Below, in pieces: positions 11,208 to 64,000 of a stretch of 64,000 nt of DNA. Position numbers and translations under genes: made by a program. How positions within the stretch are numbered: position 1 is the first letter of the stretch; each line of letters begins with the position of its first letter. The notes beneath the pieces are model-generated. The model was given only the letters and a program-made list of their open reading frames with translations, was not told where the DNA came from and ran no database searches. The stretch comes from Piedraia hortae CBS 480.64 (taxonomy: Eukaryota). The stretch lies in the NCBI GenBank assembly GCA_010093745.1, contig MU005958.1, forward strand, positions 434,001-498,000. The letters run 5' to 3'.

Positions 11208-13302
11208 AGATTGAACTGATTTTGAACACCAACATTTCACCGCTAAGCAGATCCCGCCTAGCGCCCAATAGGGACATATATGAACGTAAAAACTGTCTTT
11301 TACAATAGATTGATGGTAGGTATCCATTGTCCACGGACTTTGGTTGAGAAGTGGGTGTCCCATGAAACCTGTGTTTTCACGCTATAAAGTCTCAAGCAAA
11401 GAGAATTCTGAACGAAGTGCAATCATACATAATAGCTAACATCAGATTGCCTCAAAGGCGCCGATGTCAGGCCAATGGCTACTTTGAAACAGCTGTCAGG
11501 CGAATTTTACACAGGAATATACACTTTTGTTCAGTTTACTCGGGACTTTGGTATGCATCTGGAAAAAAAAATGGCTCTCAAATGGTATAAAAATGTTAAT
11601 CAAGCGCGTGTGCTAATGAATGTTTGCATACATATAGCATAGGCTAGGGTAGAAGTCTAATGGCGACAGATTTGGTGAATGCAATGCCCCTTAATTCGCC
11701 AAAGATACCAATGCTATTTTTATGGATACTATGGAGGACAGTGTTTGAGTGTTTGATACCGCCACCTATTGGTCTACCGTAATGTTTGCGACAGACACTG
11801 GTAGCGGCTCCCCAACGACAATCTGTCTTGAGCTAACTTCCAAAGCTTCTTGTATATATAAGGCTGTGGCCCGACTTTAGTAGCGGAGTTTTGGAGATTC
11901 TGTTTCTCTTCTCCATCACCAACGGCTGCTGGGCGACCTAGCTACTTATCATCCCCCACAAATCTCTCGGGACTCAAAACGTTTCTGGATCAAGCATGTA
12001 ATCACACACCGAGGAGATCCCTACACTCAGGTTCGTCAGTCGACCTTACAATGAGCTGCAAAAACAAATCAAAACTCGCTCGACTGTTTTTGCCTCCAAC
12101 ATACCTTAAGTAGCATGCCCCTTGCCTGTAATCCCGTCCCACAAAACAAACTTTCCACCGGCAAAAACCCTGTCCACAGTATCACATAGGTAATGTGATT
12201 CCATTCCCGGAAAGGACCGGAAAATGTGGCGTTCCGATCGGCAATTGTGATCTTCAGGGGTGCATACGGAACTGACGGTGTGTCCTGCACTAGAACGCAA
12301 AATACCATCTGAATAAACACCGTGAATCACCACATTTGCATGTAGACACGTCAAAAGAAGCACCGGGGAAGATGTAAGGATACACTGGATGAGCCACTCC
12401 ATTAGAGGACGTGGTCTGTAGGAAGACTTCCTCGCCCAACAAGATCATTTTCCTGGGCGTGGTGTGCTGGTATGAAGTCTCGCTGCTACGAGAGTGACCG
12501 CAAACTACACAAGATCTCTATAGTTTTCTCCCACGTGGGGATTTCTTCCTGGTTCGCGATCACGCCTGTGGTGTGGCGAGTGTGCTCCCGATGACAGGGT
12601 GTCATGGGATTGATATTTCAGCTGTCAGCCCAGGATGGGAAAAGGGATCTAGAACAAGGATATGACTCCTTGGACACTCCGGTGCTGGGGTTAACGTGAC
12701 TAGTTCTTGACCGAACTGCTCAGCTCCTGAGCGAAGGCTAAGCCCGTCTCCGATTCAGATGTACCCCTTAGTTCCCAAATTCCAGAAACTGTGTTCCATG
12801 TCCTTCCTGCTCTCACTTTCTGTGTCCATGTTGCACATATAGCTACGCCCCGAATGTCATGTACATGCGCGAATACGATGCCCATGAATGTTAACTCGAG
12901 TTGCCTGGTTGACTTTTCGCTTATTTGCTAGGATACTATGGGCATGGGTAAGATGGGTTTGTTGTGGCTCTGGATGTGCATAACCACTGTTGTTTGGTTT
13001 GCTTTGAAACATAAGTCTTTCCACTTTGGAGCAGATTGATACGAGAACACACGCAGACTGATCCTATTCGCCACCAGTCGGTACCTTGACATGGTTTACA
13101 TACAGAGGAGAGGTCGGTGAATAGCTTCTGGACCAATATCGAAGGAGACCTGTCTTCAGAGTGTGGGCATGGGTCCATTAACTACTTTGTGCTAATTGCT
13201 GAAAGTCCGTCAGGGAATCAAAACAGAACATTGTTCACGAGCTGTCAATTAGCATAGCCTGTGCTCAATCCAACTTCCAATATGTCCGCGTCACCCTACC
13301 AA

Positions 13303-13712
13303 TCAGTCCCCTACTTCCCCCAAGCAAATTATGCAACAAAATCTCGTACCCTGCGCACCAGCTCCCTCTATAACCCATTTGATATGGGGCCAAGCTTGGC
13401 GGAGTCCCATGAACCTCTTCTTGCGCGGATGGCCGTAGAGGAGGTGGTCACAGCCGCTGCGGGATATGAAGCCTGCGTAGCCCTTCGGTAGAGCATCGAA
13501 CTGCACGCCTGTCGACGGTAGACGCAGCTCCTCTGCCCACCTCAACGCAAGATTCTCGAGCCACTATTGTTCTTCCGGGATTAAGCTGGAGTATTTTGGC
13601 GGGCGGTGGGTTTCTGTCTCGGTTAGTGTACATTTTGTGTTGGGTGGAGAGGGCACGTACCATCCCCATCGGTATAGCTGCCTATGGGGATTATGATTGG
13701 GCCGTGTAACAT
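13303..13712 (-). pseudogene. Stand-alone Clr2 N-terminal (transcription-silencing) domain gene interrupted by one in-frame TAG
   Basis: ATG 13712 and a 47-nt intron 13660-13614 (GTACGT..ACTAAC..CAG). Spliced: MLHGPIIIPIGSYTDGD/ETHRPPKYSSLIPEEQ*WLENLALRW..ALPKGY..DHLLYGHPRKKRF..WPHIKW..CCIIC. This matches the remembered Clr2-N motifs (IPI..SDGD, LPxGY, DxxLYGHP, PH, terminal Cys cluster). TAG at 13566-13564. Confidence 0.75.
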
Positions 13713-14429
13713 TGACGTGAATGAATCGAGCTCTCCTGTGCATAGCAAGTTCTGCCAAGATGGGTCTGTAATGGACCGCGCGGGGAGGATGGTTTAAATG
13801 GTGGCTGGTTGAGTCGCCAGAGGGCATCATGCGACGGCTGGGGTCTGGGAGTTGCCGAAATGGTGGGTTGCGGTGAAAGTGTCCCATCAGTGGGAAGGCT
13901 TGGAGGAGCTGTGTTAGACTTGGGGGCACTAGCGTCATTTAGAGGAATACAGAGGGCAATGGGAGAATCCGATGGATTGGTATTGGGGAGTAGGGTGTCT
14001 TTGCGCGACAATTTTTTTTGCTGCGAGGCAGTGTGCGCCAAATCGTGGGAGAAGGCAGGAAGGCTTGCAGGGCCATTTTTCCTTGGTGTCGCGAGGATGT
14101 GAATGAATGAGCAAAGTTGATGTGAGTGTCGTGTGTTGTGGGGCTATCTTTGCTATAGCCATTCACAGCTTGGCATTCTGGGGTAACCAAAATCTTCCTC
14201 ACTCCGGCCTCACTTGGTATAGCCCCAAAGTTTGGCTCGACAAGTTTTCAAACGGCTGGAGAGCCACCCACACACACACAAGTCCGGATCATTAGCTAAT
14301 ATCAGGGATTATGACAACAGCTAGACGGCGATGTAGTCAGTGGTGCATATTCTGTCAATACATACAGCGCTACCATAATCAAGTAGCAGCTGCATTACGG
14401 TCAAACCTGGACATCGCGCACACTTGATG

Positions 14430-14474
14430 CAGCGGATTGCTCTTTACAGCGGATTGCTCTTTACAGCAGATTGC
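14430..14474. repeat. 18-bp tandem repeat, about 2.5 copies (CAGCGGATTGCTCTTTA-type unit)
   Basis: cagcggattgctctttacagcggattgctctttacagcagattgc read directly from the sequence. Confidence 0.8.
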
Positions 14475-37094: not shown

Positions 37095-37099
37095 GGGGC

Positions 37100-43933: not shown

Positions 43934-45140
43934 CCTCTGCTCACCAGAAGCGCGACCGGCCGACGACGCCGCCGCTGGGCGCAGTGGCGCTGATATCGTC
44001 TTTATGTCGGCGCGCAAGAGGCCGCGTCCGTAGCTTCCCTCGATGCGACCTCTGAGCGAACGGGTGGTTGCGCGACGTTGTTGGAGGCCTGAGGTACCGC
44101 GGCCTAATGCGACACTAGCGGGTTTAGCTGCCTTAGCGTCGCGTTCCCTGCCTGTAATCCCTGATGGGTGCGGGGTCACTTTCTCGGAAGTCGTTTGACT
44201 GTGGAATGTTGTAGCCTTGGCGGTACAGAAAGTGTCAAGTGAAGTTGGTCTGGCACTCTACCCGACTGCACTAACCGAAACGGAACAGTTTCCAATGTTG
44301 AAACACTGTAACTCACAGCGCCAGGTGTCACAGGTACACCATCTGGCACACCAAAGCATTGTGTTGCAGAAACACACCGTGCGACGAACATGCTCACAAT
44401 GTGCTTGTGAGCCCGTCCATTGAAGGTTCAGCATGCAAGAGTCTTCAGGAGCTCTGCTATTAAAGGTCAAGTGGGTGGAGCTGAGCGGCGACTTATCGAG
44501 TGAGATATCATAGTACCTGTGGATAGCAGCTTGTGCATTGCATCAAAATACTGCATTGAGTAACCCGCAGTTCGGTCAACCATAAGCGACTGACCTCCAA
44601 CTTAGACTGACAGGGATGATCAAGAACACGCGGGGTTGTTCCTCCTAAAACCCGTAACCAGATCCTTGCCCTTTGTGCAGCATACTTGTGATAGAGCTGC
44701 TCACACTCCATGAGCTGGTGAAAGACATTACAGTTTCAGTGGGCAGCAACTGAATTGGCTCATTTATCTGGATTCAACCTATTTCTAGAGCTATAGCGTG
44801 CTTCTAACACTCGCGTGGAGATAACGGGACAAACCTTTTCTCAGAAATTTTAAAATAAGAGAACAATCAAGCAGAATTTGGTAGACTATCTGCAAGTAAA
44901 TCCAGACAAATGAATCTGCACAGCAGATTACGATTCCAATGATATGCTCCACTGCAATGCGGGTACCGGGATGTACCTTAGATAGCCATCGGTGGACTTC
45001 GCCACGCCGGTGGGGTCAGCACGTTTTCACAATAAGATAAGATGCTACCAATGCCATCAAGGCGCAAAGGCAACCGGGGAAGCTGAGGTATGGCCTATCG
45101 TCTGCCATTCACGTCGACATTTTTTCTGTTGTAATGGTAG

Positions 45141-47115: not shown

Positions 47116-47153
47116 CGTGAAAGCTTCTACAGGAAAGTTTGCGTCATTACGAG

Positions 47154-51387: not shown

Positions 51388-51872
51388 CCTGTAGGCTGAT
51401 AGTTATCGTTCATCTGTGTCTGTGTCTTTGGGAAGACGTCATGACCCCACATAACCTTGCCGGGATGTTCCCGCAAATGATACATCCAAATTTGCACAGA
51501 TGGTTACCGAGTTGGCCATCAAAATCTTGAAACAGTTTGAACCCCCAAGGGTGCAGTCATTGTGTAAACAGAGCTGCTGAATAGATCATGTGCTCGACGT
51601 CCCGTGCTTGGCTATCATGATAAGAACTCAATCTAGAGTGCAATTAAATTTCCTAGAGCACTGTCCACAAAACATACCGCGAGTAAAATTCAAGATAGTG
51701 ACCATGAGCAGTGATCCATCCGTCAAAATAGACTTCCTAGTCCAGTCATTGTCCCATGCGCACCACGCACTTTGAATTAAAACTCTCCCGCGCACAATTC
51801 CACATCATAAAAGAACACTCCATGCCACAAAACCCTACATTGAAGCTAATCATACACCCCCTCCCTCCCAAC

Positions 51873-54800
51873 TCAAACAATCGAACTTCCATCCCCCAAA
51901 TCCCTCACCACCCCCTCCCTGCACGTTCCCTCCTCCCCATTCCTCAACGCAAACGTATCCTCATAAACCCCCATCGCAAGACTCCTCACAAATGGCCTAA
52001 CCACAACCCTCGCAAACTCCCCGCGCGGCAGCGCCCTGATATCATTCCCATCGAGTCTCAACCCCTCGAGTCTCAACCCCCCTCTCGTCCCAACCTTCAA
52101 ACCGTCCTCAACCCCCAGAACATCATCCCCCTCCGCCCCCTCTTCCGCCCCCGCAAGCACCCCCGCAATTTGTTCCGCCAACGGTCCATCCCCCTCGGTA
52201 GAGCGATAAACCGCATCAGTCGAATCCGCAATAAAAAGCCACTGTCTCAGTAAAAACTCATCCGGAGCGAGAGAAACCAACTGATCGAGCAGCTTACAAG
52301 CTTGCAAAATCCCATTATTCGTCCAGCCTGATCCCCCTGAGGGGAGAACTGCGGTAAGCGCGTCGTCGAGGAGGTCGTCGATCAACGGCCACAAGGCCGA
52401 GAGGTTTGGAGGGGAGAAGGAGAGGGTTGCTGCGCGAGATAGGATTAGGACTTCTGCTTTGATGGTGGAGGAAGGAAAGGAGGATTCTGTTGCTGAAGAT
52501 AAATCGGCGATTTTTTCGAGGAGGGGTTTTAGGTGTGAGAGGTGGGTATCTTTTGGGGAGGAAAGGAGGATTAGGGTGATCCGGCGGAGGGTTAGTTGTG
52601 TTTTGCGGTCGGAGTCGAGACGCGTTGCGTTGGCGTTTACGCCAAATAATGAGCCGGCGGTTGAGGGCGGGGTGAGGCGGGAAAGTTGTTCAGTGAGGCG
52701 GTCGGGGTCGCGGAACATCCATTGGTGGATTATGGGTAGCCAGGGGGTTAGGGGGGAGGAGAAGATTCGGGCGTCGTGGATTGCGTCGTGGACTTCGCGC
52801 TTCCAGGACTTGGAGGTGGGTGATTTTCTTGAGATTTCGTGGAGGAGGGTTAAGATTTCTGGGGTTAGGTTGGTGGGGAAGGATTTGGAGTGGATTAGAG
52901 GCGTTATGATGCTGTTGGTTATGTTGTTCGTTGCAGTTATGATGCGTTCGGGCGTTTCGACGATTGTGTCAAGTTCGCGGACCGCGTCGGTTAGGACGGA
53001 GATGAGGTTGCTTGCTTTGGTGCGCTCGTCGTGGTCGGGGGTTGGGATGCCGGGTACGGTGGTTAGGCTGGCTGCTAGGAGACGTTGGAATATGTCTATG
53101 AGTTCGCGTCGCATTCGCCTTTGTTCGCTAAAGTTTGTATGGAGGGATTTTTGGGATAAGCATTGGACGAGGGATAGGAGAGGGGGTAGTGCTTGGCGAT
53201 ATGGCAAAGGGTTGGCGAGCACGTCCCTTAAAAAGGCGATGCAGTCCGTCCAGATCTCGTCCAGTGCGTCGTCTTCCAGAGAGTTGACGTACTGCAAGAG
53301 GAAAACAGCAATGTCGGCCGCTGTCATGTCCACACTCATCTGTCGTCCACTCTGTGTGTCGATTCGGCCGCAGAGTGCGTTTAGTATTGTAGGAACCACG
53401 TTCTTTGGACGGGATCCTTGCATGACATGCAAAAGATCCAACGCAGTCGAGACTTTATTGGAAAGCAGAGAAATCACCACCTCCAAGCTCTCAAGCGGCT
53501 CGACCATGAACATTTGCTCTAGCAAGTGACGCGCTTTGTGTCGAAGACGGAGTGAGTAATACGTCGTTGTTGCGCTGGAGCCATGATCATGCTCGTTGGA
53601 CCAGCCCCAGATCTTGAGGCATGTTTGTATGGAATCATGAAAGGCCAGCACAACCGTCAATCGACTGTTGGCCTGTGCCGTCTTGCTTGGTGGTCCTTCT
53701 GATTTGAAAACGCCCGATGTCATGGTCCCAAAGAGCCCTCGGTTAGGGACAGGAGATTGGGTGGCTTCTTCCGCAATCTGCTCCTGTGCAAGACAATCGT
53801 GTGCCCGTGCCAGGACCATCTCCAAGGCTTCCAAAAGGCCCAGACAGACTGCATCGGGACTCCACTCATGCACATCTTCTTGCTCTGTCATCCTCACCAG
53901 CTCAGAAAACACTGCATCCAGCTCGCCGCAGAGACATTCTACCAGCGGCAGCAGGCTCGCGAATATCGCATTGGAAAATGTTGGCAGCATGCTGGACAGA
54001 AACCTCAGCCAGTGTGCCATGTGTCGACGGCCTGATTTTGAGGTGAAACCCATTCGGAGACACTTTAGCAGCTGCGGAGGTGGCGGTGCTTGTGTGGTCA
54101 TCAAACTGGGTGTGTTGCTGGCCTTTTTTTCTACCAGCCGGAGGTTGATAGCATCAGGTATCATGTCTAAGATGAGGCCTTGGAGGTCATCCTCGTCATT
54201 GGCAACACAGCCCAGCAACCGATCCATCAGGACAGAGTCCAGTGCCATTTCCCGGAACTGGTTAGACACCGGGCTTGTCATTAAAATGCGAAGAACGTTT
54301 AAGCACCGACGGTCAAGTTCCGTTGAAGTCTGTCGCGACACCATCTGCGAGCACACTTGAGCGATATACCTCGCTCCTTCTGATTCTGACTTGGCATTGC
54401 TGAGGCTGTTCCATGTCCAATCGCCTCCGTCACGGAGGAGACCCTCAAGCTGTCCGAGAACATAGACCAAACCCCTCTGTTTATCCCGCACAACTCGAAG
54501 ACGAGTCTTTGGATCTTCTACTCTCTCCTCATCTTCTTTCAGGATAATCTCTAGCCGTTCAAAGATAATTTCAAAAACATACCGAAGCGTTGGGAGAGCT
54601 GCAAGCCAGTCTCTTGCCGTCTCAGCAGCAACGCTTGGTGTTGCGCCCAATACGTCCACAATCCACGACAATGGCTCTGCTAGGATTTGCCTTCTTCGCT
54701 CAAATTTTGCAGCATCAGCCATTGCCGTGGCTGCACTGCTTCGTCGGGTCAACGTGGCTCCGCCGTTCTTAGTGGCTACCACTTGCGCGGGCATTGAATG

Positions 54801-57043
54801 GTTCCAGAGGATTGCAAACCGTCTGACTGCTTCATCGTCAAGAGGCGATTTTTCTGTTTGGCATTTCGTCCCAGATCGCATCTGAGTGATCAGCAACGCT
54901 TGCAACTTGTTATCATCGCCTGCTAGCTTGTTCAGCTGCCACAGAGCTCTCACTGCTTCAACATGATATTTGGGTCGAGAAGGTGAAAGATGTGCCCACA
55001 GCTGCGCAGTCAGCAATGGCTGTAGCTGGAAGAGTTCGTTGGCGGTGATGCGACCAGCTGAGTTGTATTCTGTCGTCAAGGATAATATTGCGTTCAGAAC
55101 TGAAAAGGAAACTGGACATTCAGTTATCCACCCCTGAATTTCCATTGGCAATGTTGGAATGGGACCAACATCGCGCGTGATGGAGAGGAGATTGTCCATG
55201 ACTGGCACGAGTTCGCAAAAAGTTGAGCTCTGCTTATCCTTGATAGTACGCCGGACTAAGCTCGTGACCTGGTGAAGAAGAGTCGCAGCCAGAGTGGAAC
55301 GGCCCATGGGCAACGAAACTTTGCCAGCTGATTGGGGCAGTTCCCGATAGAACCTTGCAATGATTGAGCTATTGTCTTCTTCAACTTCTTCCGATCCATC
55401 ACCCTTGAGCGCTCTCTCAGGAATTAGCTGGGACAGTTTGTCTGCGATTTCCAAAGCCAAGGTGGTCAATATACCTGTAGGCGTTGACTGTCGGTTGAGC
55501 AGATCAAAGATTAGAGAAAGCGTGAGGGGGGCGTGAATGAGGACCATCTCTTCGTCTGACACATTAAACGTCCCTAGAGCCCAATTGACTAGACGCAGGT
55601 TTTTTCCAGACCGTTCCTCAAAGGCTTTTCGAACGTAATTGCAAAAATTTGTCCAAACAAGACCGGCTTCCACTCCATCAAAAAACAGCGATGCACTTCG
55701 CATAACTTCCTTCACTTCCGAAGCGGATGCAGTCTGGCCGAACGTATACACACTTTCCAATGCTGGTGGGAATACTTCAGTGAGGATCGATCCGCCAATC
55801 TCCCAGCGATCCATCAACGATAGACAAATCCGAAGCGGACGAGCAACTTGGGCCGCATTATTCGGATGTTCATCTAGCAGACTGAGCATCACACGCCGCA
55901 GGGATCCTTCGCCATATTTCCGAAAGTACTCCCGCTGAGGTGCATCTTCCTGACTCCCAGATTCCTCTTTGCTCGGTCCCACAAACCAGGACCAAAGACG
56001 TCTGTTCAAACTCATGTCACGCCTCAGCAAAACTTGGACGGTTGCAGCTACTAATCGGTCGAGGTCTTCTTGATCAATCTTCTCCCGCAAGACCGGAGAG
56101 TTTAGCGGTAGATGTGTGACTAGCAGGTTCAGGAATTCTCTTTGGGCCAAGACCTGGTCGTCTGACAGTCCGGCAACAAATGCTCTGACAAGCAGCCCAG
56201 GTTCTGGACATATAACGACATAAGCCTCGTCCGAAAGGCTGTCTGTTGTGAAGTTTGGCAGACGACGTGACATGTAATTCAGCATCCCTGGCCTTCTTGA
56301 CGGACTGGTGATGACACATAGGAAGAGACATTGCCAAAAGTACCCATTTCGGGGCTCGGCAGGATCTGGCTGGGCAAATTCGTCTTCCAGTTTCTGCAAA
56401 ATCGCAAATGCACGATCAAAGTCCTCGCCCGATTCCTCTTCAATAGCAGGGCTAAGGCCTAAAATGAGTGATTTCAAAGCCGGTCGTAATGTTTTTGCCG
56501 GTAACCGAACAATGTGGTGTTCAAAAAGGGCATAGAGGGCAGGTCTGACGGAGAGCGAGGCAAATGAGAGCACGGAGGCCAATCCGGGAAGGTAATCAGT
56601 CAGGTGCAAGGACAAGTGATGGGCGCCAAAGGTCGAGAAGATATAAGAGTACACTTCGAGAGCTTTTTGATGGACACCAGAGGGCAGAGCTGGGTTCATG
56701 CATTGTGCAAGTTTGAAGGCTATGCTTCTACTGTGCGGTAGTATGGGAGAGTCTTTGGGATGCGTTTGTATCGCTTTAAGAAGGCGACCCAAAAAGGCGA
56801 TATAGTCGGCCCATTCTTCGGGAGATGTTTCCCAGGTAGCAAGAGCTTTTTCGATTACAGTTGCATATCTGCGGAGGCCCTTATCTGCCTTGTATAGTCC
56901 TATATACCATGAGCTACTGTCCACTACTGATACCCCACGCGCATACCGTCCTCTGCCGCTCGTCGCGCTACGCGAGGCGCAGGCGATGAACGCCCCGAGC
57001 TTGCAGGCGACTGGGAGCGATTACCAGCGATATCCAAGTTCAT
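51873..57043 (-). CDS. DOP1: Dopey/Dop1 (DopA) endosome-Golgi trafficking protein
   Basis: EWADYIAFLGRLLKA, LAQCMNPALPSGVHQKALEVY and LRRDMSLNRRLWSWF. First exon 57043-56947 (MNLDIAG..SPASSGRSSP) is joined by intron 56946-56900. Confidence 0.93.
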
Positions 57044-57162
57044 CTTCGTACATTCTAGCTGTCCTACGTGCCAATCGCAAGTTTCATATTCTGGTTGAAC
57101 GTGGCTTGGTGCCTCAGGCCGCAACGCGCACCTCCACCTCCACGGACGGAGTGAAGGTGAAG

Positions 57163-58767
57163 ATGTCTAGAGAATCTACGCCGCCGCCTTTACCTCGGAG
57201 ACCTGTAAAGGATACAGAACCTCCCAAGCCAGCTTCTCTCCGCCTCTCAAAGTCGTCTTCGAGACCTCAGCTGCTATCTCCAGCCACTACAGCGCTGTCC
57301 CTGACTGATGTATTAAGCGGGGAAAGCACTCCAGCGAGTCGGAGTGTGTCCAGAGAACAATCGCTTGATCACTTTCATCGTTCAAGCATTGACAGCGATG
57401 TTAGTAGGAGTATATCAGGAGAATTCCATGATGATTCGTTGGATTTACAAACAGACGACTCCATCAGTCTTCAATTTCAACACGAGTTTGATGCACTAGA
57501 AGGACTAGATGAAGAAGACTTGATCCGCAAATGGGGAGCCAAGCTTAAACACTTTTTCATCTTGTCAGCCTCGGGCAAGCCCATCTATAGCCGTCATGGC
57601 GACGACCAGCTCATCAGCAACTACATTGGCATAGCCCAAACACTGATATCCTTTTACCAAGACGCCAATGACAATCTTAAGTCGTTTACAGCCGGCGACA
57701 CCCGGTTCGTCATGCTGTCAGAAGGATACTTGAACCTCGTAGCCATAAGCCGATTGGGTGAAAGCGAAGGTCAACTACGCTCCCAGCTGGAAAGCCTCTA
57801 CATGCAGATCTTATCCGCACTGACTTTGCCGTCCATGGAAAAAATGTTCAAGCTTCGCCCGTCTACTGATCTTCGTCGGCCACTCGCGGGAACAGACGTG
57901 CTGCTGGACAGTCTGGCAGACGGCTTCACACGAGGCTCACCTTCAACTCTCTTATCCGCACTAGAATGCCTGCGTCTTCATAAAAGCCATCGAGAGGTGA
58001 TTGACGAAACATTTCTCAGAGTTCGTTCTCCAAATTTGCTCTACGGGTTGATCGTAGCAGCTGGTCGTCTGGTTAGCGTAGTTCGGCCTAAGAAGCATTC
58101 TCTACACCCGGGCGACCTCCACTTGATTTTCAATATGCTCTTTGAAGCGAGCAACATCCGCGCTGGTGGTGGGGAGAACTGGATTCCTCTTTCTCTGCCG
58201 GGTTTCCACAAGAACGGTTACCTCTACATGTACGTTAGTTTCGTCACCGAGGAGGTAGATGACGCCTTAGCCGTCGTTCTTATCAGCGCGAACAGGGAAG
58301 GCTTCTATGAGCTGCGTGAGATGCGAGACAGTCTACTCGAACAACTCGAGCAAAACGAAGGCATGTCCCATCTTAAAGCAGCCATGAGCAAAGGCCGGGC
58401 TTCATGTTCTCAAATGGTTCCCGGCTCTGTCCTGAAGCATTTCCTCTACAAGTCCCGCGCTCACGTGCAGTTTACCATGCCTTCATTTGAGCCTTTATTC
58501 GGAGACGCTGTGTTACGAAGGAAGCTGCTAAGCTGGTATGGCAGTTTGCATGAAAGCATCCATTCACGCGCGGCACGGTTAAAAGTGCAACATCGGTCAA
58601 CACCGTACATGTCGGGCTTGGCATGGGAAACAGCGCAGTTTGAACTCTATTGCGTGGCAGGTCCCAATGCGTCGAGGAACGACCTCTTGCACGCTGCCAA
58701 CCGGGTTGTGAAGCAAATGAAACGAGAGGAGGAAAAAGTTTTCATAATCGGTGGAGCAGTCTTCTAA
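57163..58767 (+). CDS. MON1: Vacuolar fusion protein Mon1 (Rab7 GEF subunit)
   Basis: KLKHFFILSASGKPIYSRHG, YMQILSALT, HSLHPGDLHLIFN, WIPLSLPGF and EEKVFIIGGAVF. Confidence 0.93.
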   Translation: MSRESTPPPLPRRPVKDTEPPKPASLRLSKSSSRPQLLSPATTALSLTDVLSGESTPASRSVSREQSLDHFHRSSIDSDVSRSISGEFHDDSLDLQTDDSISLQFQHEFDALEGLDEEDLIRKWGAKLKHFFILSASGKPIYSRHGDDQLISNYIGIAQTLISFYQDANDNLKSFTAGDTRFVMLSEGYLNLVAISRLGESEGQLRSQLESLYMQILSALTLPSMEKMFKLRPSTDLRRPLAGTDVLLDSLADGFTRGSPSTLLSALECLRLHKSHREVIDETFLRVRSPNLLYGLIVAAGRLVSVVRPKKHSLHPGDLHLIFNMLFEASNIRAGGGENWIPLSLPGFHKNGYLYMYVSFVTEEVDDALAVVLISANREGFYELREMRDSLLEQLEQNEGMSHLKAAMSKGRASCSQMVPGSVLKHFLYKSRAHVQFTMPSFEPLFGDAVLRRKLLSWYGSLHESIHSRAARLKVQHRSTPYMSGLAWETAQFELYCVAGPNASRNDLLHAANRVVKQMKREEEKVFIIGGAVF

Positions 58768-61064
58768 TCATGTCTAACCAGCCATGTGCGAGCTATGGTC
58801 TGAAATCGCATCACATCATTTTCCAGCCTCTTCACACGAGCATCCATCACTGCTCGCCAAGCCCTTTGCAGAACTGTTGTTGCTTCGACGAGACGGTGTT
58901 GTGTCCGCACCACTGCGGCGCAGGAATGTGCCAGTCGACAGAGAGCGAGTCTCCTGGTTATCTGCCTCCTTGCCAGCATTAGCCGATAAGCTCTTGAAAT
59001 CTTGACCGCGGATTTGTGCGTTTTGGCCAGATGTAACAACCTCGACGCAAGGAACGCGAGGTTGGCAATAACGGCATGTCGCGAAGGAACAAATCCGTCT
59101 TTCGCAGTCAACTGCGAGACGAAAGTCTTGCTGCATCCAATCGCAGCCAGCTTGTCCGCCAGTCCGGCAGGTTGTCCGGAAATAAACTCTCCGAACCCAT
59201 CCAAAATAGCCTCATAAACCTCCCTCCCACATTCCGCAAACATCTCCGTCGTCAGAGCAGAACCATAGTACCCTTCCGCCCACTCCATCAACTTCCCCTC
59301 CCCAGCAAGTCCCTCCCCAACCAACTTATTCAATCCAAACGGACACACGATCCTCCACAACAAACTGAGCGTCCGTTCCCTATGTCCATCCACCAAATCT
59401 TCCGCCTGTACCCCAGAAACGTCAACCCCCTTCTCCCTCAACCCATCCAACGCCCTTTGGGTATTACCCAACCTCTCCCTCCTAGTCCTACACTGCCCCC
59501 CCACCCCTTTTCCACCAAACAAAACAACCCCCAACCGCCCCAAAAGCACCCCATCCCGAACCCCAACTGCCAAATCTTTTACTCCCCAATCCTCATCCTC
59601 ATCCTGCACAAACCCAACCTCAAAACCCAAAAATCCCAACCTTCGAACCAAATCCCCCGTCGACGGAATCACAACCTTCCCCAACCTAACAATCATCTCC
59701 CTCGAAGCCTTAACCCCCCCCTCACACCTAAAAACCAACCCCCCCTTAATCCCACCCCGATCCAAAACCCAAATAACCATCAACGCACGAAGGACACAAA
59801 CCCACCACTCCCCTTCGACAAAAAACCTCTTCAAGAAAGCCCTCACCCTGACCGAGGGCGGAATGGTGCGGCCAACGACGACTTCAGCCGCGGCGCGGAG
59901 CCATCCCTCTTCATACACTTCCAGGAGGGAGAGGAATGCTTCGCGAATCCCGAGATCGGTGGAGAGATGGACCGGCTTTGCTGGCGCGAGGGTCCCATAC
60001 CGCAAGCTTTGTTCGAGCCGGGTGTGCAGGGTTACTGTTGTGGGGGTGTGGTAGATTTTAAGAAGAGGTTCCCGCCGGGGGGGAGGGGGGGGTTGTGCGG
60101 TGGGGGTGAGGAGGGTGTTGATTATTTCACGCAGGGAGACTTCTTGGTGGGAGAGCCAGTGGGGCAAGGGGGTGTAGAGGCTTGGGTGGGGGATGTGGGG
60201 TAGGGGTTGGTAAGACTCCTTTGGGGGATGGAGGGCTGCTGGTTTTGGGTGGTCGTTTTGGGTTGTGATTGTCATGATCAGTTCCGCAGGGGGGGAGAAG
60301 GTCTCTTTCTTCCCACCGTTTTGGCTGGGGATCGTAGTTGTGGACTTGCAGGTGGGTTTGGGATTTTGCGGACTTTGGGGGGTGCGGGTTTGGGAGGGCT
60401 TCGCCGTGACTGATTGCTTGAGAGGACGCGGGAACGCCGATGTATCGGCTGGTGATACCACTTTTGCGGATACAGATGGCTTTTTCATTTTTCGCTTCGT
60501 GTCTGGGAGGAGGTTATCTTTCTCACCGCCCTGGCCTGGTATGTCCACTTTGTGGTTTGTATGGGTGGGTTTCGGGGTTATTGAACCCAGTGGGACTCGT
60601 TTGTGAGGGGGCTTCGCCGCGCCTTCTTGTTTTGAAGAACGATTATTGGGCCGCTTCGCGCTGGGTAACATGAATGTATCGTCTAGTAATCCCGCTTTTG
60701 TGAATGATTTCTTCCTGTTCCGGTTCGCGTCTGGGAGAAGATTCTCTTTTCCACCGCCCTGGCCTGGGATGTCCACTGTGCAATTGGTGTTGTTGGGTTT
60801 GGGAGTTATGGTACCCAGTGGTGTGCGTCTTTGGGGTGTCGGCTTCACCGCGTCTGCTTTTTTTGGAGACCGCTTGTTAGGACGCTTCGCAATGGGGAAC
60901 ATCCATGTATCGTCTAGGGTTTTGTCTTTTGCGCCGGGATGGATCGTCAACATAGCTGTTGTGGAGTCTGGCGGGATGTAAATTGTTCGTCTTCGCCGGT
61001 CGACAGGGGACATGTTCATATTGGGTTTCAGGGGTGAAAAGGCGAGATGCAGATTTGTCGCCAT
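58764..61064 (-). CDS. ASPM/Sha1-like calmodulin-binding spindle protein (CH domain plus IQ motifs)
   Basis: RRRTIYIPPD, TIHPG, DLGIREAFL, WLRAAAEVVVGR, CH motif VKDLAVGVRDGVLLGRL..EDLVDGHRERTLSLLW and IQ-like LQRAWR. Start uncertain; the frame is open to 61355. Confidence 0.8.
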   Translation of the reverse strand: MATNLHLAFSPLKPNMNMSPVDRRRRTIYIPPDSTTAMLTIHPGAKDKTLDDTWMFPIAKRPNKRSPKKADAVKPTPQRRTPLGTITPKPNNTNCTVDIPGQGGGKENLLPDANRNRKKSFTKAGLLDDTFMLPSAKRPNNRSSKQEGAAKPPHKRVPLGSITPKPTHTNHKVDIPGQGGEKDNLLPDTKRKMKKPSVSAKVVSPADTSAFPRPLKQSVTAKPSQTRTPQSPQNPKPTCKSTTTIPSQNGGKKETFSPPAELIMTITTQNDHPKPAALHPPKESYQPLPHIPHPSLYTPLPHWLSHQEVSLREIINTLLTPTAQPPPPPRREPLLKIYHTPTTVTLHTRLEQSLRYGTLAPAKPVHLSTDLGIREAFLSLLEVYEEGWLRAAAEVVVGRTIPPSVRVRAFLKRFFVEGEWWVCVLRALMVIWVLDRGGIKGGLVFRCEGGVKASREMIVRLGKVVIPSTGDLVRRLGFLGFEVGFVQDEDEDWGVKDLAVGVRDGVLLGRLGVVLFGGKGVGGQCRTRRERLGNTQRALDGLREKGVDVSGVQAEDLVDGHRERTLSLLWRIVCPFGLNKLVGEGLAGEGKLMEWAEGYYGSALTTEMFAECGREVYEAILDGFGEFISGQPAGLADKLAAIGCSKTFVSQLTAKDGFVPSRHAVIANLAFLASRLLHLAKTHKSAVKISRAYRLMLARRQITRRLALCRLAHSCAAVVRTQHRLVEATTVLQRAWRAVMDARVKRLENDVMRFQTIARTWLVRHD
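60481..60917 (-). repeat. Intragenic tandem duplication, 231-bp offset, in the ASPM-like gene
   Basis: Copy 1: LDDTWMFPIAKRPNKRS..RRTPLGTITPKP..VDIPGQGGGKENLLPD. Copy 2: LDDTFMLPSAKRPNNRS..KRVPLGSITPKP..VDIPGQGGEKDNLLPD. Confidence 0.92.
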
Positions 61065-62249
61065 TGTGTGGATTTTCGATAGAGGTGTTTGCTCAATTGA
61101 TGGTTTGGCGCGTGGATGAGTATTTGGGTCGGTCGGTTGGCGTGGCAACGGCGTAGGTAGCGGGTTAAGGTTTGGAGTTTCACACACAATACACACCATG
61201 TGACAGCAACTTTCACTACTCAGGTTTTTCAGGTCTGAACTTTGGTCCATTGTTATTTGCCTCTGGACCAGCCGCGCTAGATATCGACAAGTGCTTTTCG
61301 CGTAGCTGATCATCGCAACTTTTACTCCAAACCCTGCATCGCATCTTGTGTGCATAAAGCTCGATCATACAACCACTCAATATCGTCATATAGCCGGACT
61401 TGGACTCTGCGAACACTGGACAGATTGAATAAACCTTTATAGTGGAATGGCAGCGCCTCCAATATGGTCTTCACGCAAGCGTAAACACTGGATATGGCGA
61501 ACCGAAATTTCGTGCCATATCGATCCGCCGAATCCAGGGTTAGAGTGTAGCTGCATTGATAGAACCAAAAAGTGGGCTGGAGATCAGCTCTGATGAGTAT
61601 GGTGAAAGGGGTGCGTTGGATGTAAGTTCGCATATGCACTGAGAATCAATTTCGAGTCTGTGATGCCTGTTACATTCTTTTGGAAAATTGGGGGTTGGGC
61701 AACAGATGGCAGTCCATCTGTGTGCCTAGTCAACCAATCCATCGATCAACTAATGAGCAGAATACCCACTTCAATATCGGCGTAAAGTTACGGAAATGCC
61801 CGCTCAATAATGCATACATACTACTGAACCATGAGTTTCTTTCTCCAATATCGTCGCAAAGTTACAGAAAGGCTCATACAATAGTATATTGAGTCATAGT
61901 GTAGCAACTACTTTCTCCATTATTGACTCAAAGTCACATAGATACCTATTCAATAGTGCGCGAGCCGGCATGCCCCTTTTTATTCCGTGAGAGCAAATGA
62001 ATTGCCTCCGTATGTCAGCGTCGAGCGCTCTTCACTAACTCATTCCGAGGAAACTTTCGAGAATCTCTACTGAGACGACGAGTTTTCCCCGAGCAGGACT
62101 GTACGTTAACCTTCCCTGCTCATCAAAAAGCTCTGAGTAGTCACTTAATATCTCGCCGACATTGCTGCAGAAAATCAGAAAAGGCATGGTAGAAATGTAT
62201 TGGTGTAGTTCATGTCATAAGATGACGATAGTTATCCTCCGACTACTCA

Positions 62250-62674
62250 TCACTGCCAAACCACCCCCACCCCAGCCTTCTCCCCCTCTCCCCCCGAAAA
62301 CTCATCAAACCTCGCATCCCTATCCCACACATTCCCCAACTCTGATTCCTCCCTCCTTCGACGCAGCAACACGCTTAAAATATCGAATCCGATGCATCGG
62401 GATCTACTTCTCCTTATCTTTATCCCTAACCCACGCATCTGCATGAAGCTCCTTCATCCCCTCAAACCTCTCCGCGTATCCAATCACATAGTCCGCAACG
62501 TCCAGGTTCGGGTCCCAGTAGAGTCTATTCAGAATTTTCGGTCCGGGTGTTAATTTTCCTTTGGGGCCTTGAGATTGGAGTTGGGAGGGGGGGGGGTTAT
62601 CCTGCGTGAGTTCTTTGCCTTGGAGTTGGTGTGGCGGTGTAGTTCGACACGCGGGTTGGTGTGCTCGGTGGCAT
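62250..62674 (-). pseudogene. MJ1316 (DUF504/LENG9-type) RNA cyclic-end recognition domain pseudogene
   Basis: A frame absent from the ORF track reads KGKLTPGPKILNRLYWDPNLDVADYVIGYAERFEGMKE..WVRDKDKEK*IPMHRIRYFKR. After a frameshift it continues VWDRDARFDEFSG. TAG at 62406-62404; the ATG at 62674 is out of frame. Confidence 0.8.
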
Positions 62675-64000
62675 TGTTGTGTTTAAATTTAGGACAATGG
62701 GATAGTGCGAGAGTATGCTGATGGGTGCGCCTTGCCATTGTTTGAGCTGAAAAATAATCGTGGTGTTTGTTTAAGTTGTTGAGTTATGTTGGGTGTGGTT
62801 GGGATTTTTATGGAGGGATGCTGTGTGACTGACTTGTCGAGGACTACTGTTGCGAGGTGTCTTTTTCCATGGCAAAGGGGGGGGGGGTTTCTGTGTATCA
62901 CCAGACCATCTTGTCGTTTTTGACCCTAGCGGACCCAATTGCATCGTCACACCACTTCCATATCGCAATGCCACATTAGCATCCAAGATAAATCATCTTA
63001 TGACCCATGAGCTTTCAGTCGATCTGTTCACTGATCAACACCAAGCTCACAAGATCTTTCTATGCGAATGAGTCATGATGAGAATATTCCGCTGTCTCAC
63101 TTACGAATTTCACACACATATTAACAATATTGCTTGGATTGATTCTTGGGTTTGGTTCAAATCGTTGTGGATGAACATAATTCAGTCAATATTGGCATGA
63201 TAAGTATCTCCAGGCGATTGGTAAATTTGAAGGACTCAACCATCCTAGGAAGATAGAATTGTGCGTACTATGATACCTGCCTACTTTTATGTGCTGCAAC
63301 GCAATAGTGCACGGTCATACGTTATCGGACGCCGGCGTGGCACCAAATCTGTTATGGAAATCTGATTGGCTTCAATCTTCTATGAGAACACTATTCTACT
63401 ATACCACCATGCATCGATTAGCTTCCATCGCAAACGTCTGAAAAGCTTGCTTCGGTGGGAAAAACTATCTTTCCCTGCTTCATCCAAGACAATATCACAA
63501 TCGCCGAGCAGCAGATCCGTCACGGCTTGTGACATCTCCAGTGTTCATTCCCCCTCAATCCGAAAAAGACTCCTGTGATGCGCAGTTCGGATGAAAAGGC
63601 ATGAATACACCCATGTTGCCCAGTTCCTAAGGCGGGAATGGAAACTGAACGGAGAGGACCATGTACCGTATACCTCATGTTAAAGGTGATTAGGTTTCAC
63701 AGACCTACTTATCCCGTCATCTGACATCAAGTTCTATGTACTTGGTATATATCTTTTTCTTTTTTCTTAAAAAGAAAAAAAAGCCGAAAGATGAACAGCC
63801 GTGGCAGTCTTACCCCCGTTGCCAGAGTGCCGTGGCAATTTCAGAGGTATAGATGTACAGAGATGGGTTCGAAGATATCAAAGTTTGAGCTGTAAAGGAA
63901 ATCTGCTCAGCTCGTTTTTACTTCTTGGCAGAGGGAACTCCGCCCATGCTGCAGATTTTGTAATTACAACCCTTTCCTCGTCGCGAGGCCTTCCTATCCT

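What the first reader, a model, noticed from the sequence alone, without database searches (positions are those of the whole stretch)
13270..62900. The skew islands recur (about 7 in 64 kb) and coincide with dead or dying genes: candidate localized hypermutation system
Seen: the same C/A-to-G/T polarity switch occurs near 13.5, 31.1, 32.3, 41.1 (weaker), 52.3, 59.95 and 62.5 kb. Both recognisable pseudogenes (Clr2-N, MJ1316) and the small orphan at 32.3 kb are centred on a switch, while the long conserved genes DOP1, ASPM-like and MED14 stay in frame. This does not look like classic RIP: the targets appear single-copy within the window, stay GC-rich, and the change is strand-polar. Inference: fixed sites (origins or break hotspots) with error-prone strand-specific synthesis drive gene loss in this compact genome. 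I do not know of this being described in filamentous fungi.
Basis: inference. Interest (0 to 1): 0.78.

Follow-up and report, generated by a model that had tools for sequence, protein, structure and literature searches.

The report
Strand-flipping mutation islands in fungal genes
In this compact fungal genome, short stretches of DNA have been rewritten so that one strand is almost all G and T, then abruptly almost all C and A, even inside essential conserved genes, which points to a strong local one-strand mutation pressure that has not been described in this form.

Summary
All seven reported switch sites exist (13566, 31087, 32255, 41134, 52337, 59913, 62504). They are edges or centres of discrete 0.4-2 kb blocks with sharp borders. 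The islands are not confined to dead genes. The strongest lie inside intact DOP1, an ASPM-like gene and MED14. There, third codon positions jump from balanced to 82% C+A, then to 85% G+T, within one conserved domain. Amino-acid content is dragged the same way, and the three proteins are extreme outliers among 45-119 homologs only within the arms. An independent RNA data set carries the identical sequence, so this is not an assembly artefact. RIP, repeats, hairpins, mobile elements, sequence-context-specific deaminases and termination-motif selection were tested and do not fit. The polarity mirrors that reported at human meiotic break hotspots and is opposite to the weak bias at all 9 real divergent promoters here. 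My best reading (about 35%) is transcription-linked, R-loop-type exposure of one strand where convergent transcripts overlap, possibly self-reinforcing. Origin-type and break-repair models remain rivals. The link to gene decay is suggestive only: two confirmed pseudogenes, one eroded domain, p=0.04. The mechanism needs strand-specific RNA, R-loop and genome-wide data.

The parts
13570..14159 (.). Island 1: single G/T-rich (plus strand) arm, mean keto score +0.28
   Evidence: Change-point fit; 100-bp profile
13303..13563 (-). Clr2 N-terminal domain fragment of a disrupted gene. An in-frame stop at 13564-13566 separates it from the upstream open frame 13564-13938. No Clr2 C-terminal domain was found downstream.
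   Evidence: Pfam PF16761 E=5.4e-8; ORF table; 11 of 11 downstream minus-strand ORFs without a Clr2 hit
31080..31609 (.). Island 2: single G/T-rich arm (+0.32), preceded by a long weak C-rich stretch from about 29250 to 31080
31980..32199 (.). Island 3: C/A-rich arm (-0.31), short and weak
   Evidence: 6-segment fit
32300..32739 (.). Island 3: G/T-rich arm (+0.32). No Pfam family found in ORFs here.
41130..42149 (.). Island 4: single G/T-rich arm (+0.26) covering the last ~1 kb of MED14 coding sequence (sense strand C/A-rich)
   Evidence: third-position block; 4-fold sites C .49; z -4.0; 0 of 59 homologs more extreme
41030..44179 (-). MED14, intact open frame
   Evidence: Pfam PF08638 E=2.4e-54; homologs
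51780..52339 (.). Island 5: C/A-rich arm (-0.40). It covers the last 460 nt of DOP1 coding sequence plus about 93 nt beyond its stop codon (sense strand G/T-rich).
52340..53219 (.). Island 5: G/T-rich arm (+0.36) inside the DOP1_C domain (sense strand C/A-rich). The flip is abrupt.
51873..56924 (-). DOP1 (Dopey), intact. The DOP1_C domain (residues 1208-1658) spans the whole island.
   Evidence: Pfam PF24598 E=9.5e-108, PF04118 E=2.3e-109; 1518 homologs at E<=1e-50; RNA contig with one 47-nt intron
59180..59849 (.). Island 6: C/A-rich arm (-0.51) over the CH-domain region of the ASPM-like gene (sense strand G/T-rich)
   Evidence: z +10.4; 0 of 45 homologs more extreme
59850..60009 (.). Island 6: about 160-bp compositionally neutral core (only this island supports a core; islands 5 and 7 flip abruptly)
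   Evidence: BIC -294.1 with core, -290.6 without
60010..61179 (.). Island 6: G/T-rich arm (+0.38; +0.52 in 60020-60399). The distal part, 60400-61179, partly reflects a K/P/T-rich repeat region of the protein.
   Evidence: z -5.6 for 60010-60400
58764..61355 (-). ASPM-like gene (CH domain plus IQ motif), open frame intact. The database's own model of 828 aa implies a start near 61250; the next ATG is at 61064.
62240..62499 (.). Island 7: C/A-rich arm (-0.35)
62500..62899 (.). Island 7: G/T-rich arm (+0.43). The flip is abrupt.
62404..62682 (-). MJ1316-domain fragment of a pseudogene: in-frame TAG at 62404-62406, with the domain continuing after it and then in another frame
   Evidence: Pfam PF04457 E=1.9e-9, profile positions 6-46 of 75; sequence read

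Best explanation
What it is (shown). These are discrete 0.4-2 kb islands in the nuclear genome of a fast-evolving dothideomycete. Within each, one DNA strand has lost C and A and gained G and T. In four islands the favoured strand swaps within 160 bp or less. The pattern is laid over whatever the DNA encodes. It is strongest at silent codon positions and weaker at first and second positions. It has dragged protein composition with it and is absent from homologous proteins of other lineages. That is the signature of a long-acting, local, strand-specific mutation pressure that selection only partly resists.

How it most likely works (inferred). On each side of the switch, the strand that lost C and A is the one whose 5' end points toward the switch. 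That is the geometry of a non-template strand displaced by polymerases moving away from the switch. It is not the geometry of the 3' tails left by resection at a break. My committed reading is transcription-linked exposure of the R-loop type, in zones where transcripts from both strands overlap. This genome has convergent genes that abut or overlap, and RNA contigs that bridge gene boundaries. Toward its own distal end each transcript would leave its non-template strand single-stranded. Exposed C and A are then replaced by T and G through deamination and base loss followed by lesion bypass. A G-richer non-template strand favours further RNA-DNA hybrids, so the state could reinforce itself. Such feedback would explain the all-or-none blocks, the plateaus, the sharp edges and the abrupt strand flip.

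The chemistry, the antisense transcripts and the feedback are all inferred, not shown.
For: Real and not an artefact. DNA contigs (X1) and spliced RNA contigs from a different sample and study (X2) match the window with 0 other letters in all 12 listed pieces.

Mutational, not selective.
- DOP1 third positions go from A .25 C .24 G .27 T .24 (body) to C .54 A .28, then to G .55 T .30.
- Pooled 4-fold sites: G .55 T .30 A .09 C .07 (n=174), and the complementary C .54 A .23 (n=409).
- Pooled 2-fold sites in the G/T-sense arms: T in 57 of 63 Y-ending and G in 91 of 108 R-ending codons.
- Untranslated islands have the same amplitude.
- Dinucleotide odds ratios are near 1 and there is no neighbour preference around the remaining C or A.
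- Termination-type motifs are not enriched.

Local. 26 of 29 long ORFs show no block of consecutive skewed third-position windows.

Lineage-specific. The amino-acid keto index of the query is the most extreme in DOP1 arm A (0 of 119 lower). It is also the most extreme in both ASPM-like arms (0 of 45; z -5.6 and +10.4) and in the MED14 arm (0 of 59). Flanking parts are ordinary (z +0.1, -0.4, +1.7).

Geometry. All 4 two-armed islands run C/A then G/T. This is the mirror of the asymmetry reported at human DSB hotspots, where the forward strand is single-stranded left of the break and loses C and A (PMC7615360).

Transcript landmarks. The left edge of island 5 (51780) lies 93 nt past the DOP1 stop. 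The right edge of island 6 (61180) lies within about 120 nt of the candidate ASPM-like start codons. Island 4 begins 100 nt inside the MED14 3' end and 300 nt past the stop of the convergent Bsd2-like gene.

RNA bridging. RNA contigs run continuously across gene borders (49294-52131 and 52749-59473).

G clusters. G-run motifs are in excess next to the island 6 switch (6 against 0.79 expected, and 7 against 3.28).
Against: - No strand-specific RNA data exist here, so the antisense transcripts required over the G/T (plus strand) arms are hypothetical. The RNA contigs are unstranded.
- Most genes are transcribed yet unskewed, including the first 3.7 kb of DOP1 itself. Transcription alone is therefore not enough.
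- 7 of the 10 convergent junctions have no island. Adjacency to a convergent junction is not informative, because most minus-strand genes here have a plus-strand left neighbour.
- All 9 of 9 real divergent promoters in the window show the opposite weak polarity (mean step -0.147, p=0.004). Outward transcription from ordinary promoters therefore does not produce this sign in this genome.
- The ASPM-like G/T-sense arm ends 415 nt before the stop codon, and the DOP1 C/A-sense arm starts mid-gene at no known landmark.
- G-run clustering is absent or below expectation in island 5's right arm and in island 4.
- Island 7 had no RNA cover in the one RNA run.
- Constant polarity rests on only 4 two-armed islands (p=0.125).
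Confidence: 0.35

Rival explanations
1. Origin-type asymmetry. Each switch is a fixed site where the duplex is opened for replication. The lagging-strand template on each side (plus strand on the right, minus strand on the left) is exposed or copied with a different error spectrum, as at bacterial origins and as proposed for human CpG islands.
For: The polarity (C/A then G/T) is that of bacterial origins and of the bidirectional asymmetry around human CpG islands (PMC2817419, abstract only). The G+T enrichment on one strand is the classical leading-strand / single-strand signature (recalled). One island has a core of about 160 bp. All island-bearing genes lie on one strand (5 of 15 minus-strand genes including the two pseudogenes, against 0 of 16 plus-strand; p=0.018). 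That hints at an interaction with a larger directional process such as fork direction.
Against: Arms are only 0.3-1.2 kb and end sharply, instead of extending toward termination zones. Seven sites in 64 kb, with neighbours 1.2 and 2.6 kb apart, is denser than expected for replication origins (an expectation from recall, not tested here). The cores are not AT-rich and share no convincing motif: GGGAGA occurs in 5 of 7 cores, and 1 of 30 random sets did as well. Three islands have one arm only. In eukaryotic initiation both strands near an origin are copied by the same polymerases (recalled), so a kb-limited asymmetry is not expected.
Confidence: 0.17
2. Recurrent break or nick at the switch, with outward repair synthesis. 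After a site-anchored double-strand break or nick, the strand resynthesised away from the site (plus strand to the right, minus strand to the left) is made by an error-prone polymerase that favours G-T mispairs. The new strand therefore gains G and T.
For: Arm lengths of 0.3-1.2 kb resemble resection and conversion tract lengths. Human meiotic hotspots show a symmetric central +/-100 bp, 1-2 kb flanks with strand-asymmetric C>N and A>N changes, and implicated translesion polymerases (PMC7615360, sections 4 and 8). An abrupt flip in islands 5 and 7 suits a site-specific cut. GC at 4-fold sites rises from .50 (DOP1 body) to .62-.65 (pooled arms), as conversion bias would give. Earlier scan notes describe similar silent-site scars beside a bacterial palindromic repeat and beside phage homing endonucleases (unchecked leads).
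Against: If the damage is on the resected 3' tails, as the human data are read, the expected order is G/T then C/A, the mirror of what is seen. The model survives only if errors in the nascent strand dominate. Variable resection lengths predict graded outer edges, not sharp ones. No nuclease gene, repeat or hairpin lies at the cores. Three islands are one-armed.
Confidence: 0.15
3. An extreme local form of the gene-polar skew of fungal genes. Each island is one transcription unit whose coding strand is C-rich upstream and G-rich downstream, as McLean and Tirosh described for most yeasts, here amplified in a few units (possibly including internal short transcripts of DOP1 and MED14).
For: The sense-strand order is the same (C-rich then G-rich). 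In both cases 4-fold sites and amino-acid usage are affected and the skew spills into UTRs (PMC3315797, parts 1-2 of 4 read). The 5' ends of genes in this window are weakly sense-C/A-rich at 9 of 9 divergent junctions. The ASPM-like and MJ1316 islands cover most of their genes. Five unnamed DOP1 homologs show a milder G/V-rich shift at the same C-terminal stretch. An earlier scan note reports a similar sawtooth in a planctomycete (unchecked).
Against: It is not a general property here: 26 of 29 long ORFs have no block. In DOP1 the pattern fills only the last 1.4 kb of a 5-kb gene. The MED14 3' end is C/A-rich, the wrong sign for a 3' end. AT skew flips together with GC skew here, whereas that paper reports uniform positive AT skew. 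Because the order C/A then G/T reads the same on both strands, agreement of two-armed islands with the sense order is automatic and carries no weight.
Confidence: 0.13
4. Selection for the skew itself, for example G-rich non-template stretches that stop read-through polymerases in a genome where convergent genes abut.
For: The genome is very compact: the MON1 and ASPM-like frames overlap by 4 nt and introns are 44-47 nt. Terminal GC skew linked to termination is reported for human genes (PMC3787257; search listing and start of abstract only).
Against: No termination-type motif is enriched, and GTAG is depleted (z -4.2). The skew costs protein conservation. It persists in pseudogenes and in stretches with no recognisable gene. 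The ASPM-like G/T-sense arm would terminate its own mRNA 0.4-1.1 kb early.
Confidence: 0.05

Closest known systems
[quoted passage not shown]
   Same: Coding strand C-rich upstream and G-rich downstream. Four-fold sites and amino-acid usage are affected. The skew extends into UTRs. The cause is unknown and thought to be transcription-linked.
   Different: That is a weak genome-wide average gradient with uniform AT skew. Here there are a few discrete blocks of extreme amplitude (about 85% G+T at silent sites), AT skew flips too, most genes are unaffected, and the blocks need not span a gene.
Strand-asymmetric mutagenesis at human meiotic DSB hotspots (Hinch et al. 2023, PMC7615360)
   Same: A centre without asymmetry, kb-scale flanks, and loss of C and A from one strand on each side. 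C>G, C>T and A>G are attributed to single-strand damage and translesion synthesis.
   Different: The polarity is mirrored. In humans it is a mutation-rate signal in polymorphism data, not a saturated change of composition. The sites are PRDM9-defined, whereas no motif was found here.
Origin-type skew jumps (bacterial oriC; bidirectional asymmetry around human CpG islands, Polak & Arndt 2009, PMC2817419)
   Same: The same upward polarity and the same pair of enriched bases (G and T) on the strand running away from the site.
   Different: Those asymmetries are weak and extend tens of kb to Mb. Here the arms are 0.3-1.2 kb, sharp-edged, extreme and closely spaced.
GC-skewed, R-loop-forming promoters and terminators of human genes (Ginno et al. 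2013, PMC3787257; listing and start of abstract only)
   Same: Kb-scale G-rich non-template strand linked to transcription. At bidirectional promoters (as I recall) the sign flips in the same order as here.
   Different: Those lie at CpG-island promoters or gene ends. Here the blocks lie in coding sequence, and the annotated divergent promoters of this window have the opposite sign.
Heavy/light-strand asymmetry of vertebrate mitochondrial DNA (recalled, no call)
   Same: Comparable amplitude at silent sites and the same chemistry (C to T and A to G on the strand that spends time single-stranded), with amino-acid usage dragged along.
   Different: That is whole-genome, organellar and tied to the replication mode. 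Here the blocks are local and lie in nuclear genes.
Repeat-induced point mutation (RIP) of filamentous ascomycetes
   Same: A fungal, strand-coordinated transition bias that can kill genes.
   Different: RIP targets duplicated DNA, lowers GC and leaves a TpA excess. None of these applies here.

Membership tests
RIP (repeat-induced point mutation) | Targets are duplicated sequences | tested here: not met
   No long direct repeats link the islands. Arm-against-arm local alignments give scores of at most 34, equivalent to about 17 matched bases.
RIP (repeat-induced point mutation) | C-to-T at CpA, giving GC loss and a TpA excess | tested here: not met
   Arms have GC 0.525 against 0.522 for the window. 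TpA/ApT is 0.60 against 0.61, and (CpA+TpG)/(ApC+GpT) is 1.18 against 1.32. A is lost as well as C.
Gene-polar GC skew of fungal genes (McLean & Tirosh 2011) | Coding strand C-biased at the 5' end and G-biased at the 3' end of the gene | tested here: inconclusive
   Fits the ASPM-like gene and MJ1316. In DOP1 it holds only within the last 1.4 kb. The MED14 3' end has the wrong sign. Agreement of two-armed islands is automatic by symmetry.
Gene-polar GC skew of fungal genes (McLean & Tirosh 2011) | A property of most genes of the genome | tested here: not met
   26 of 29 long ORFs in the window have no third-position block. The whole genome was not available.
Gene-polar GC skew of fungal genes (McLean & Tirosh 2011) | AT skew roughly uniform and positive along genes | tested here: not met
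   AT skew flips with GC skew, for example +0.22 to -0.36 across 59.3-60.5 kb.
Meiotic DSB hotspot asymmetry (Hinch et al. 2023) | Flanks in which one strand loses C and A, with a symmetric centre of about +/-100 bp | tested here: inconclusive
   Loss of C and A from one strand per side is met. A neutral centre is supported in 1 of 4 two-armed islands, and the flip is abrupt in 2.
Meiotic DSB hotspot asymmetry (Hinch et al. 2023) | The depleted strand is the resected 3' tail (forward strand left of the centre) | tested here: not met
   Here the forward strand is depleted of C and A on the right of the centre in 4 of 4 two-armed islands (compared).
Replication-origin skew jump | Upward jump (C/A to G/T on the forward strand) | tested here: met
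Replication-origin skew jump | Asymmetry extends across the replicon to termination zones | tested here: not met
   Arms end sharply after 0.3-1.2 kb.
Replication-origin skew jump | Initiation of replication at the site | not testable with these tools
   No replication data are available.
GC-skewed R-loop regions (bidirectional promoter type) | G-rich non-template strand on both sides of a pair of divergent start sites | tested here: inconclusive
   The sign order fits. But all 9 annotated divergent junctions here have the opposite weak sign, and cryptic start sites cannot be seen in unstranded contigs.
GC-skewed R-loop regions (bidirectional promoter type) | RNA-DNA hybrids form on the C-rich template | not testable with these tools
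   No DRIP-type data. G-run clustering is mixed.

The most novel reading that the evidence does not exclude
A self-sustaining local mutation regime in a eukaryotic nuclear genome. Once a stretch acquires strand skew, a structure that depends on that skew (RNA-DNA hybrids or stalled polymerases in zones of overlapping transcription) keeps one strand exposed and drives silent sites to about 85% G+T. This creates bistable, sharp-edged domains that flip strand at a point, rewrite conserved proteins and eventually erode dispensable genes. It would be a nuclear counterpart of mitochondrial heavy-strand asymmetry and a new route of gene loss in compact genomes.
Probability: 0.25. Interest if true: 0.85.

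Novelty: new variant of a known kind. Interest (0 to 1): 0.7.

Why it matters
Strand-asymmetric mutation is usually a weak statistical signal seen only after averaging thousands of genes or sites. Here it is visible by eye in single genes and strong enough to recode a conserved domain and shift its amino-acid content. It is also confined to sharp blocks beside unaffected sequence in the same transcript. That offers a natural experiment for three questions. Which process exposes or resynthesises one strand locally: transcription overlap, R-loops, origins or breaks? How far can mutation pressure push essential proteins? Can such pressure contribute to gene loss during genome compaction? It also warns annotators that biased blocks open long spurious ORFs on the opposite strand (for example 52459-53529 and 59076-60203) and can push real domains below family thresholds.

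Tried and rejected
- Whole genome: none is held.
- Palindrome or hairpin: only short inverted matches of 70-88%. Aligning each C/A arm against the reverse complement of its G/T arm gave z of -0.12, -0.63 and +0.21 for islands 5-7, and +3.5 for the weak island 3, against 100 shuffles.
- Shared or mobile element: arms are not similar to each other. There is no tRNA and no Rfam family. Only three small tandem-repeat rows were found.
- Core motif: GGGAGA in 5 of 7 cores. 1 of 30 random sets reached 5, and 7- and 8-mers were no better than random.
- Context-specific deaminase: no neighbour preference at the remaining C or A beyond the window-wide TpA deficit.
- G-quadruplex clustering: in excess in island 6 and the island 5 left arm, absent elsewhere.
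- Termination motifs: not enriched.
- Nucleotide spectrum from amino-acid replacements: counts too small. DOP1 arm B gave 17 of 22 single-step changes toward G or T; arm A gave only 18.4 of 34.1 toward C or A.
- RNA evidence: only one RNA-like run was listed. It is unstranded contigs, so it gives no strand, start, end or level. No RNA holder covered 61428-63400. Contig depths cannot rank parts of genes.
- Convergent-junction link: 3 of 3 intact-gene islands lie just right of a convergent junction, but 10 of 14 minus-strand genes (the two pseudogenes counted) have a plus-strand left neighbour, so this is uninformative.
- Literature: seven searches found no description of kb-scale extreme skew blocks inside fungal nuclear genes. 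Subscription journals are not covered.
- Scan notebook: nothing for this genome or look-alike stretches. The word search gave leads from other organisms only.

Full report
**Observation**

A sliding composition profile shows paired extremes of GC and AT skew at the reported places, for example GC skew -0.72 at 59251-59750 and +0.50 at 60001-60500. I scored each base +1 for G or T and -1 for C or A, then took the step between adjacent 400-bp windows. This gave positive peaks at 13566, 31087, 32255, 41134, 52337, 59913 and 62504, matching all seven sites of the finding. Weaker peaks lie at 6123 and 19826.

The three largest steps (+0.675, +0.91, +0.665) exceed all 200 shuffles of 100-bp blocks (largest 0.525). 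The other four (+0.37 to +0.51) do not.

**Shape of the islands**

Profiles at 100 bp and change-point fits show plateaus with sharp borders:

| Island | C/A arm (mean score) | G/T arm (mean score) | Flip |
|---|---|---|---|
| 5 | 51780-52339 (-0.40) | 52340-53219 (+0.36) | abrupt |
| 6 | 59180-59849 (-0.51) | 60010-61179 (+0.38) | 160-bp neutral core |
| 7 | 62240-62499 (-0.35) | 62500-62899 (+0.43) | abrupt |
| 3 | 31980-32199 (-0.31, weak) | 32300-32739 (+0.32) | not resolved |
| 1 | none | 13570-14159 (+0.28) | one-armed |
| 2 | none | 31080-31609 (+0.32) | one-armed |
| 4 | none | 41130-42149 (+0.26) | one-armed |

So 'the same polarity switch seven times' really means four two-armed islands, all C/A then G/T (p=0.125), plus three one-armed G/T blocks.

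**Not an artefact**

No genome is held for the window. Two public runs from different samples and studies hold the stretch. I laid both on 43500-63400. DNA contigs (X1) and contigs that turned out to be RNA (X2) match with no differing letter in all 12 listed pieces, including pieces that enter the islands. X2 carries five spliced GT..AG introns of 44-47 nt. The sequence is therefore real and transcribed, and RNA equals DNA.

**What lies under the islands**

The organism is a dothideomycete near Teratosphaeriaceae/Mycosphaerellales on a long branch. The best DOP1 homolog is 47% identical.

- DOP1: the minus-strand frame 51873-56924 has Dopey_N (E=2.3e-109) and DOP1_C (E=9.5e-108, residues 1208-1658). 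DOP1_C covers the whole of island 5.
- ASPM-like: 58764-61355 (minus strand) is a CH/IQ protein.
- MED14: 41030-44179 (minus strand).
- Clr2-like: the Clr2 N-terminal domain (13303-13563, minus strand, E=5.4e-8) is cut off from the upstream frame by a stop at 13564-13566. None of the 11 downstream minus-strand ORFs scanned matched the Clr2 C-terminal domain.
- MJ1316: the fragment (62404-62682, minus strand, E=1.9e-9) ends at an in-frame TAG. The domain resumes after it and then continues in another frame.
- No family was found in islands 2 and 3.

So two islands sit on true pseudogenes, two on unidentified DNA, and three inside intact conserved genes.

**Mutation pressure, not selection**

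In DOP1 the third codon positions are balanced in the body (A .25 C .24 G .27 T .24). They become C .54 A .28 in the upstream arm and G .55 T .30 in the downstream arm. First and second positions move less.

| Arms (pooled) | 4-fold sites | 2-fold Y-ending | 2-fold R-ending |
|---|---|---|---|
| G/T-sense | G .55 T .30 A .09 C .07 (n=174) | T in 57 of 63 | G in 91 of 108 |
| C/A-sense | C .54 A .23 G .11 T .11 (n=409) | C in 121 of 148 | A in 87 of 130 |

Gene bodies are balanced. On the favoured strand both transitions (C to T, A to G) are therefore strongly biased. There is also an extra net shift to G that needs transversions.

Several further tests point the same way:

- Only MED14, DOP1 and the ASPM-like gene, of 29 long ORFs, carry blocks, so this is not codon usage or a general gene gradient.
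- Dinucleotide odds ratios in the arms are 0.82-1.23, apart from the TpA deficit of 0.63. The remaining C and A have no neighbour preference.
- GC is 0.525 against 0.522 for the window, and the RIP indices equal the window's.
- Arms are neither complementary to each other nor copies of one element.
- No RNA gene lies in the window.

**Effect on proteins**

Against 12 orthologs each:

- DOP1 identity relative to ortholog-ortholog identity falls from 0.95 and 0.93 in the body to 0.83 and 0.61 in the two arms.
- Conserved columns are replaced in 30 of 60 and 46 of 185 arm positions, against 74 of 500 in the body (p=3e-9 and 0.003).
- In the ASPM-like gene the figures are 55 of 124 and 18 of 44 against 16 of 70 (p=0.003 and 0.058). 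In MED14 they are 32 of 81 against 85 of 286 (p=0.11).
- G/T-sense arms gain G, V, E and R. C/A-sense arms gain P, T, I, N, H and Q, in all three genes.
- The CH domain scores 23.9 bits, under Pfam's 26-bit cut-off, while most homologs keep it.

I also scored each residue by the G+T content of the first two bases of its codons. On this index the query is the most extreme sequence in four arms: DOP1 arm A (0 of 119 lower), both ASPM-like arms (0 of 45; z -5.6 and +10.4) and the MED14 arm (0 of 59). Its flanking regions are average. In DOP1 arm B one homolog (P0027) is higher and four more are raised. The islands are therefore derived in this lineage, with a possible recurrence at the DOP1 3' end.

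These data show directional pressure. They do not by themselves show a raised mutation rate.

**Geometry and mechanism**

On each side, the strand that lost C and A has its 5' end toward the switch.

- Break hotspots: Hinch et al. 2023 (PMC7615360; passages, sections 4 and 8 and two legends read) report a very similar anatomy at human meiotic hotspots. There is a symmetric central +/-100 bp, with 1-2 kb flanks losing C and A on one strand. But there the affected strand is the resected 3' tail (forward strand on the left), which predicts G/T then C/A. The window shows the mirror image. A break model survives only if errors in the outward-synthesised strand dominate.
- Origins: the polarity fits bacterial origins and the asymmetry around human CpG islands (PMC2817419, abstract only). 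Short sharp arms and spacings of 1.2-2.6 kb do not fit.
- Ordinary promoters: within the window, all 9 real divergent gene junctions show the opposite weak step (mean -0.147, p=0.004). 7 of the 10 convergent junctions are positive. Ordinary promoters therefore do not generate the island sign.
- McLean and Tirosh 2011 (PMC3315797, parts 1-2 of 4 read) describe the only fungal pattern with the same sense-strand order. It is a weak genome-wide gradient with uniform AT skew.

Some borders match transcript landmarks:

- 51780 is 93 nt past the DOP1 stop.
- 61180 is near the ASPM-like start.
- 41130 is 100 nt inside the MED14 3' end and 300 nt past the convergent neighbour's stop.

Other borders (53219, 59180, 42149) match nothing known. 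RNA contigs bridge neighbouring genes, and the MON1 and ASPM-like frames overlap by 4 nt. Long overlapping transcripts are therefore plausible, but their strands are unknown.

I commit, at about 35%, to transcription-linked, R-loop-type exposure of the non-template strand in zones of overlapping convergent transcription. Positive feedback between G-richness and hybrid formation would explain the all-or-none, sharp-edged blocks. The rivals are origin-type opening (0.17), break or nick repair synthesis (0.15), an extreme form of the gene-polar skew (0.13) and selection for skew (0.05). The remainder is something not yet considered.

**Novelty**

Seven literature searches found no account of such blocks in fungal nuclear genes. 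Notes from this scan describe comparable silent-site rewriting in a bacterium, in phages and in a planctomycete. They are unchecked and have different or unresolved geometry.

I file this as a new variant of known strand-asymmetry phenomena. It is remarkable for its amplitude, its confinement and its effect on conserved proteins.

Noticed in passing
window 45957-46005, 46911-46956, 50096-50142, 50877-50923, 56898-56946: All five introns seen in the RNA contigs are tiny (44-47 nt skipped; GT..AG, or CT..AC for the minus-strand one). This fits an extremely compact genome.
   Followed up: partly
window 58764-58767: The convergent MON1 (plus strand, 56890-58767) and ASPM-like (minus strand, 58764-61355) reading frames overlap by 4 nt, so their 3' UTRs must lie inside each other's coding sequence.
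   Followed up: no
window 52459-53529 (+), 59076-60203 (+), 51756-52253 (+): Long open frames of 165-375 aa on the strand opposite to DOP1 and the ASPM-like gene have no Pfam family. They most likely exist only because the biased composition removes stop codons, which is a trap for gene callers.
   Followed up: partly
window 60476-60917: The ASPM-like N-terminal region contains diverged direct repeats of about 228-231 bp (72-75% identity) that encode a K/P/T-rich repeat. This contributes to the weaker outer part of the island 6 G/T arm.
   Followed up: partly
window 51999-52007, 60192-60229 and 60106: The DNA-run contigs break inside islands 5 and 6, and an RNA contig ends in a run of 16 G at 60106. 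The biased, homopolymer-rich arms seem hard to assemble.
   Followed up: no
proteins P0022, P0023, P0027, P0035, P0041 (unnamed DOP1 homologs): Five homologs from unnamed assemblies show a milder G/V-rich shift at the same C-terminal stretch of DOP1 (index +0.14 to +0.23 against a mean of +0.01), but not the arm A shift. A similar 3'-end bias may exist in other lineages. Their DNA could not be fetched.
   Followed up: partly
window 50923-51387 (+): A small plus-strand gene with one 45-nt intron lies between the GGA-like gene (stop near 50342-50344) and DOP1. By eye its product looks like a ubiquitin-like plus AN1-type zinc-finger protein. That label is recalled and was not tested against Pfam.
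   Followed up: no
window 7131-7463 (-) and 9410-10108 (+): A Ras-family fragment (E=5.4e-21, profile positions 17-92 of 162) and a fungal C2H2 zinc finger lie in the ORF-poor stretch 6.4-10.1 kb. They are probably intron-split genes rather than dead ones, and there is no island there.
   Followed up: partly
window 14430-14474: A 17-bp tandem repeat (2.6 copies, CAGCGGATTGCTCTTTA) lies about 270 bp beyond the right edge of island 1.
   Followed up: no
window 6123 and 19826: Two weaker steps of the same sign (+0.33 and +0.30). The second lies at a convergent gene junction (plus-strand ORF ending at 19242, minus-strand ORF 19729-20781). These may be incipient or faded islands.
   Followed up: no
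homolog names: In two named relatives the locus tags of the DOP1 and ASPM-like homologs are two apart (B0A55_07251 and 07253; LTR37_012492 and 012494). The DOP1-MON1-ASPM neighbourhood therefore seems conserved in the group.
   Followed up: no
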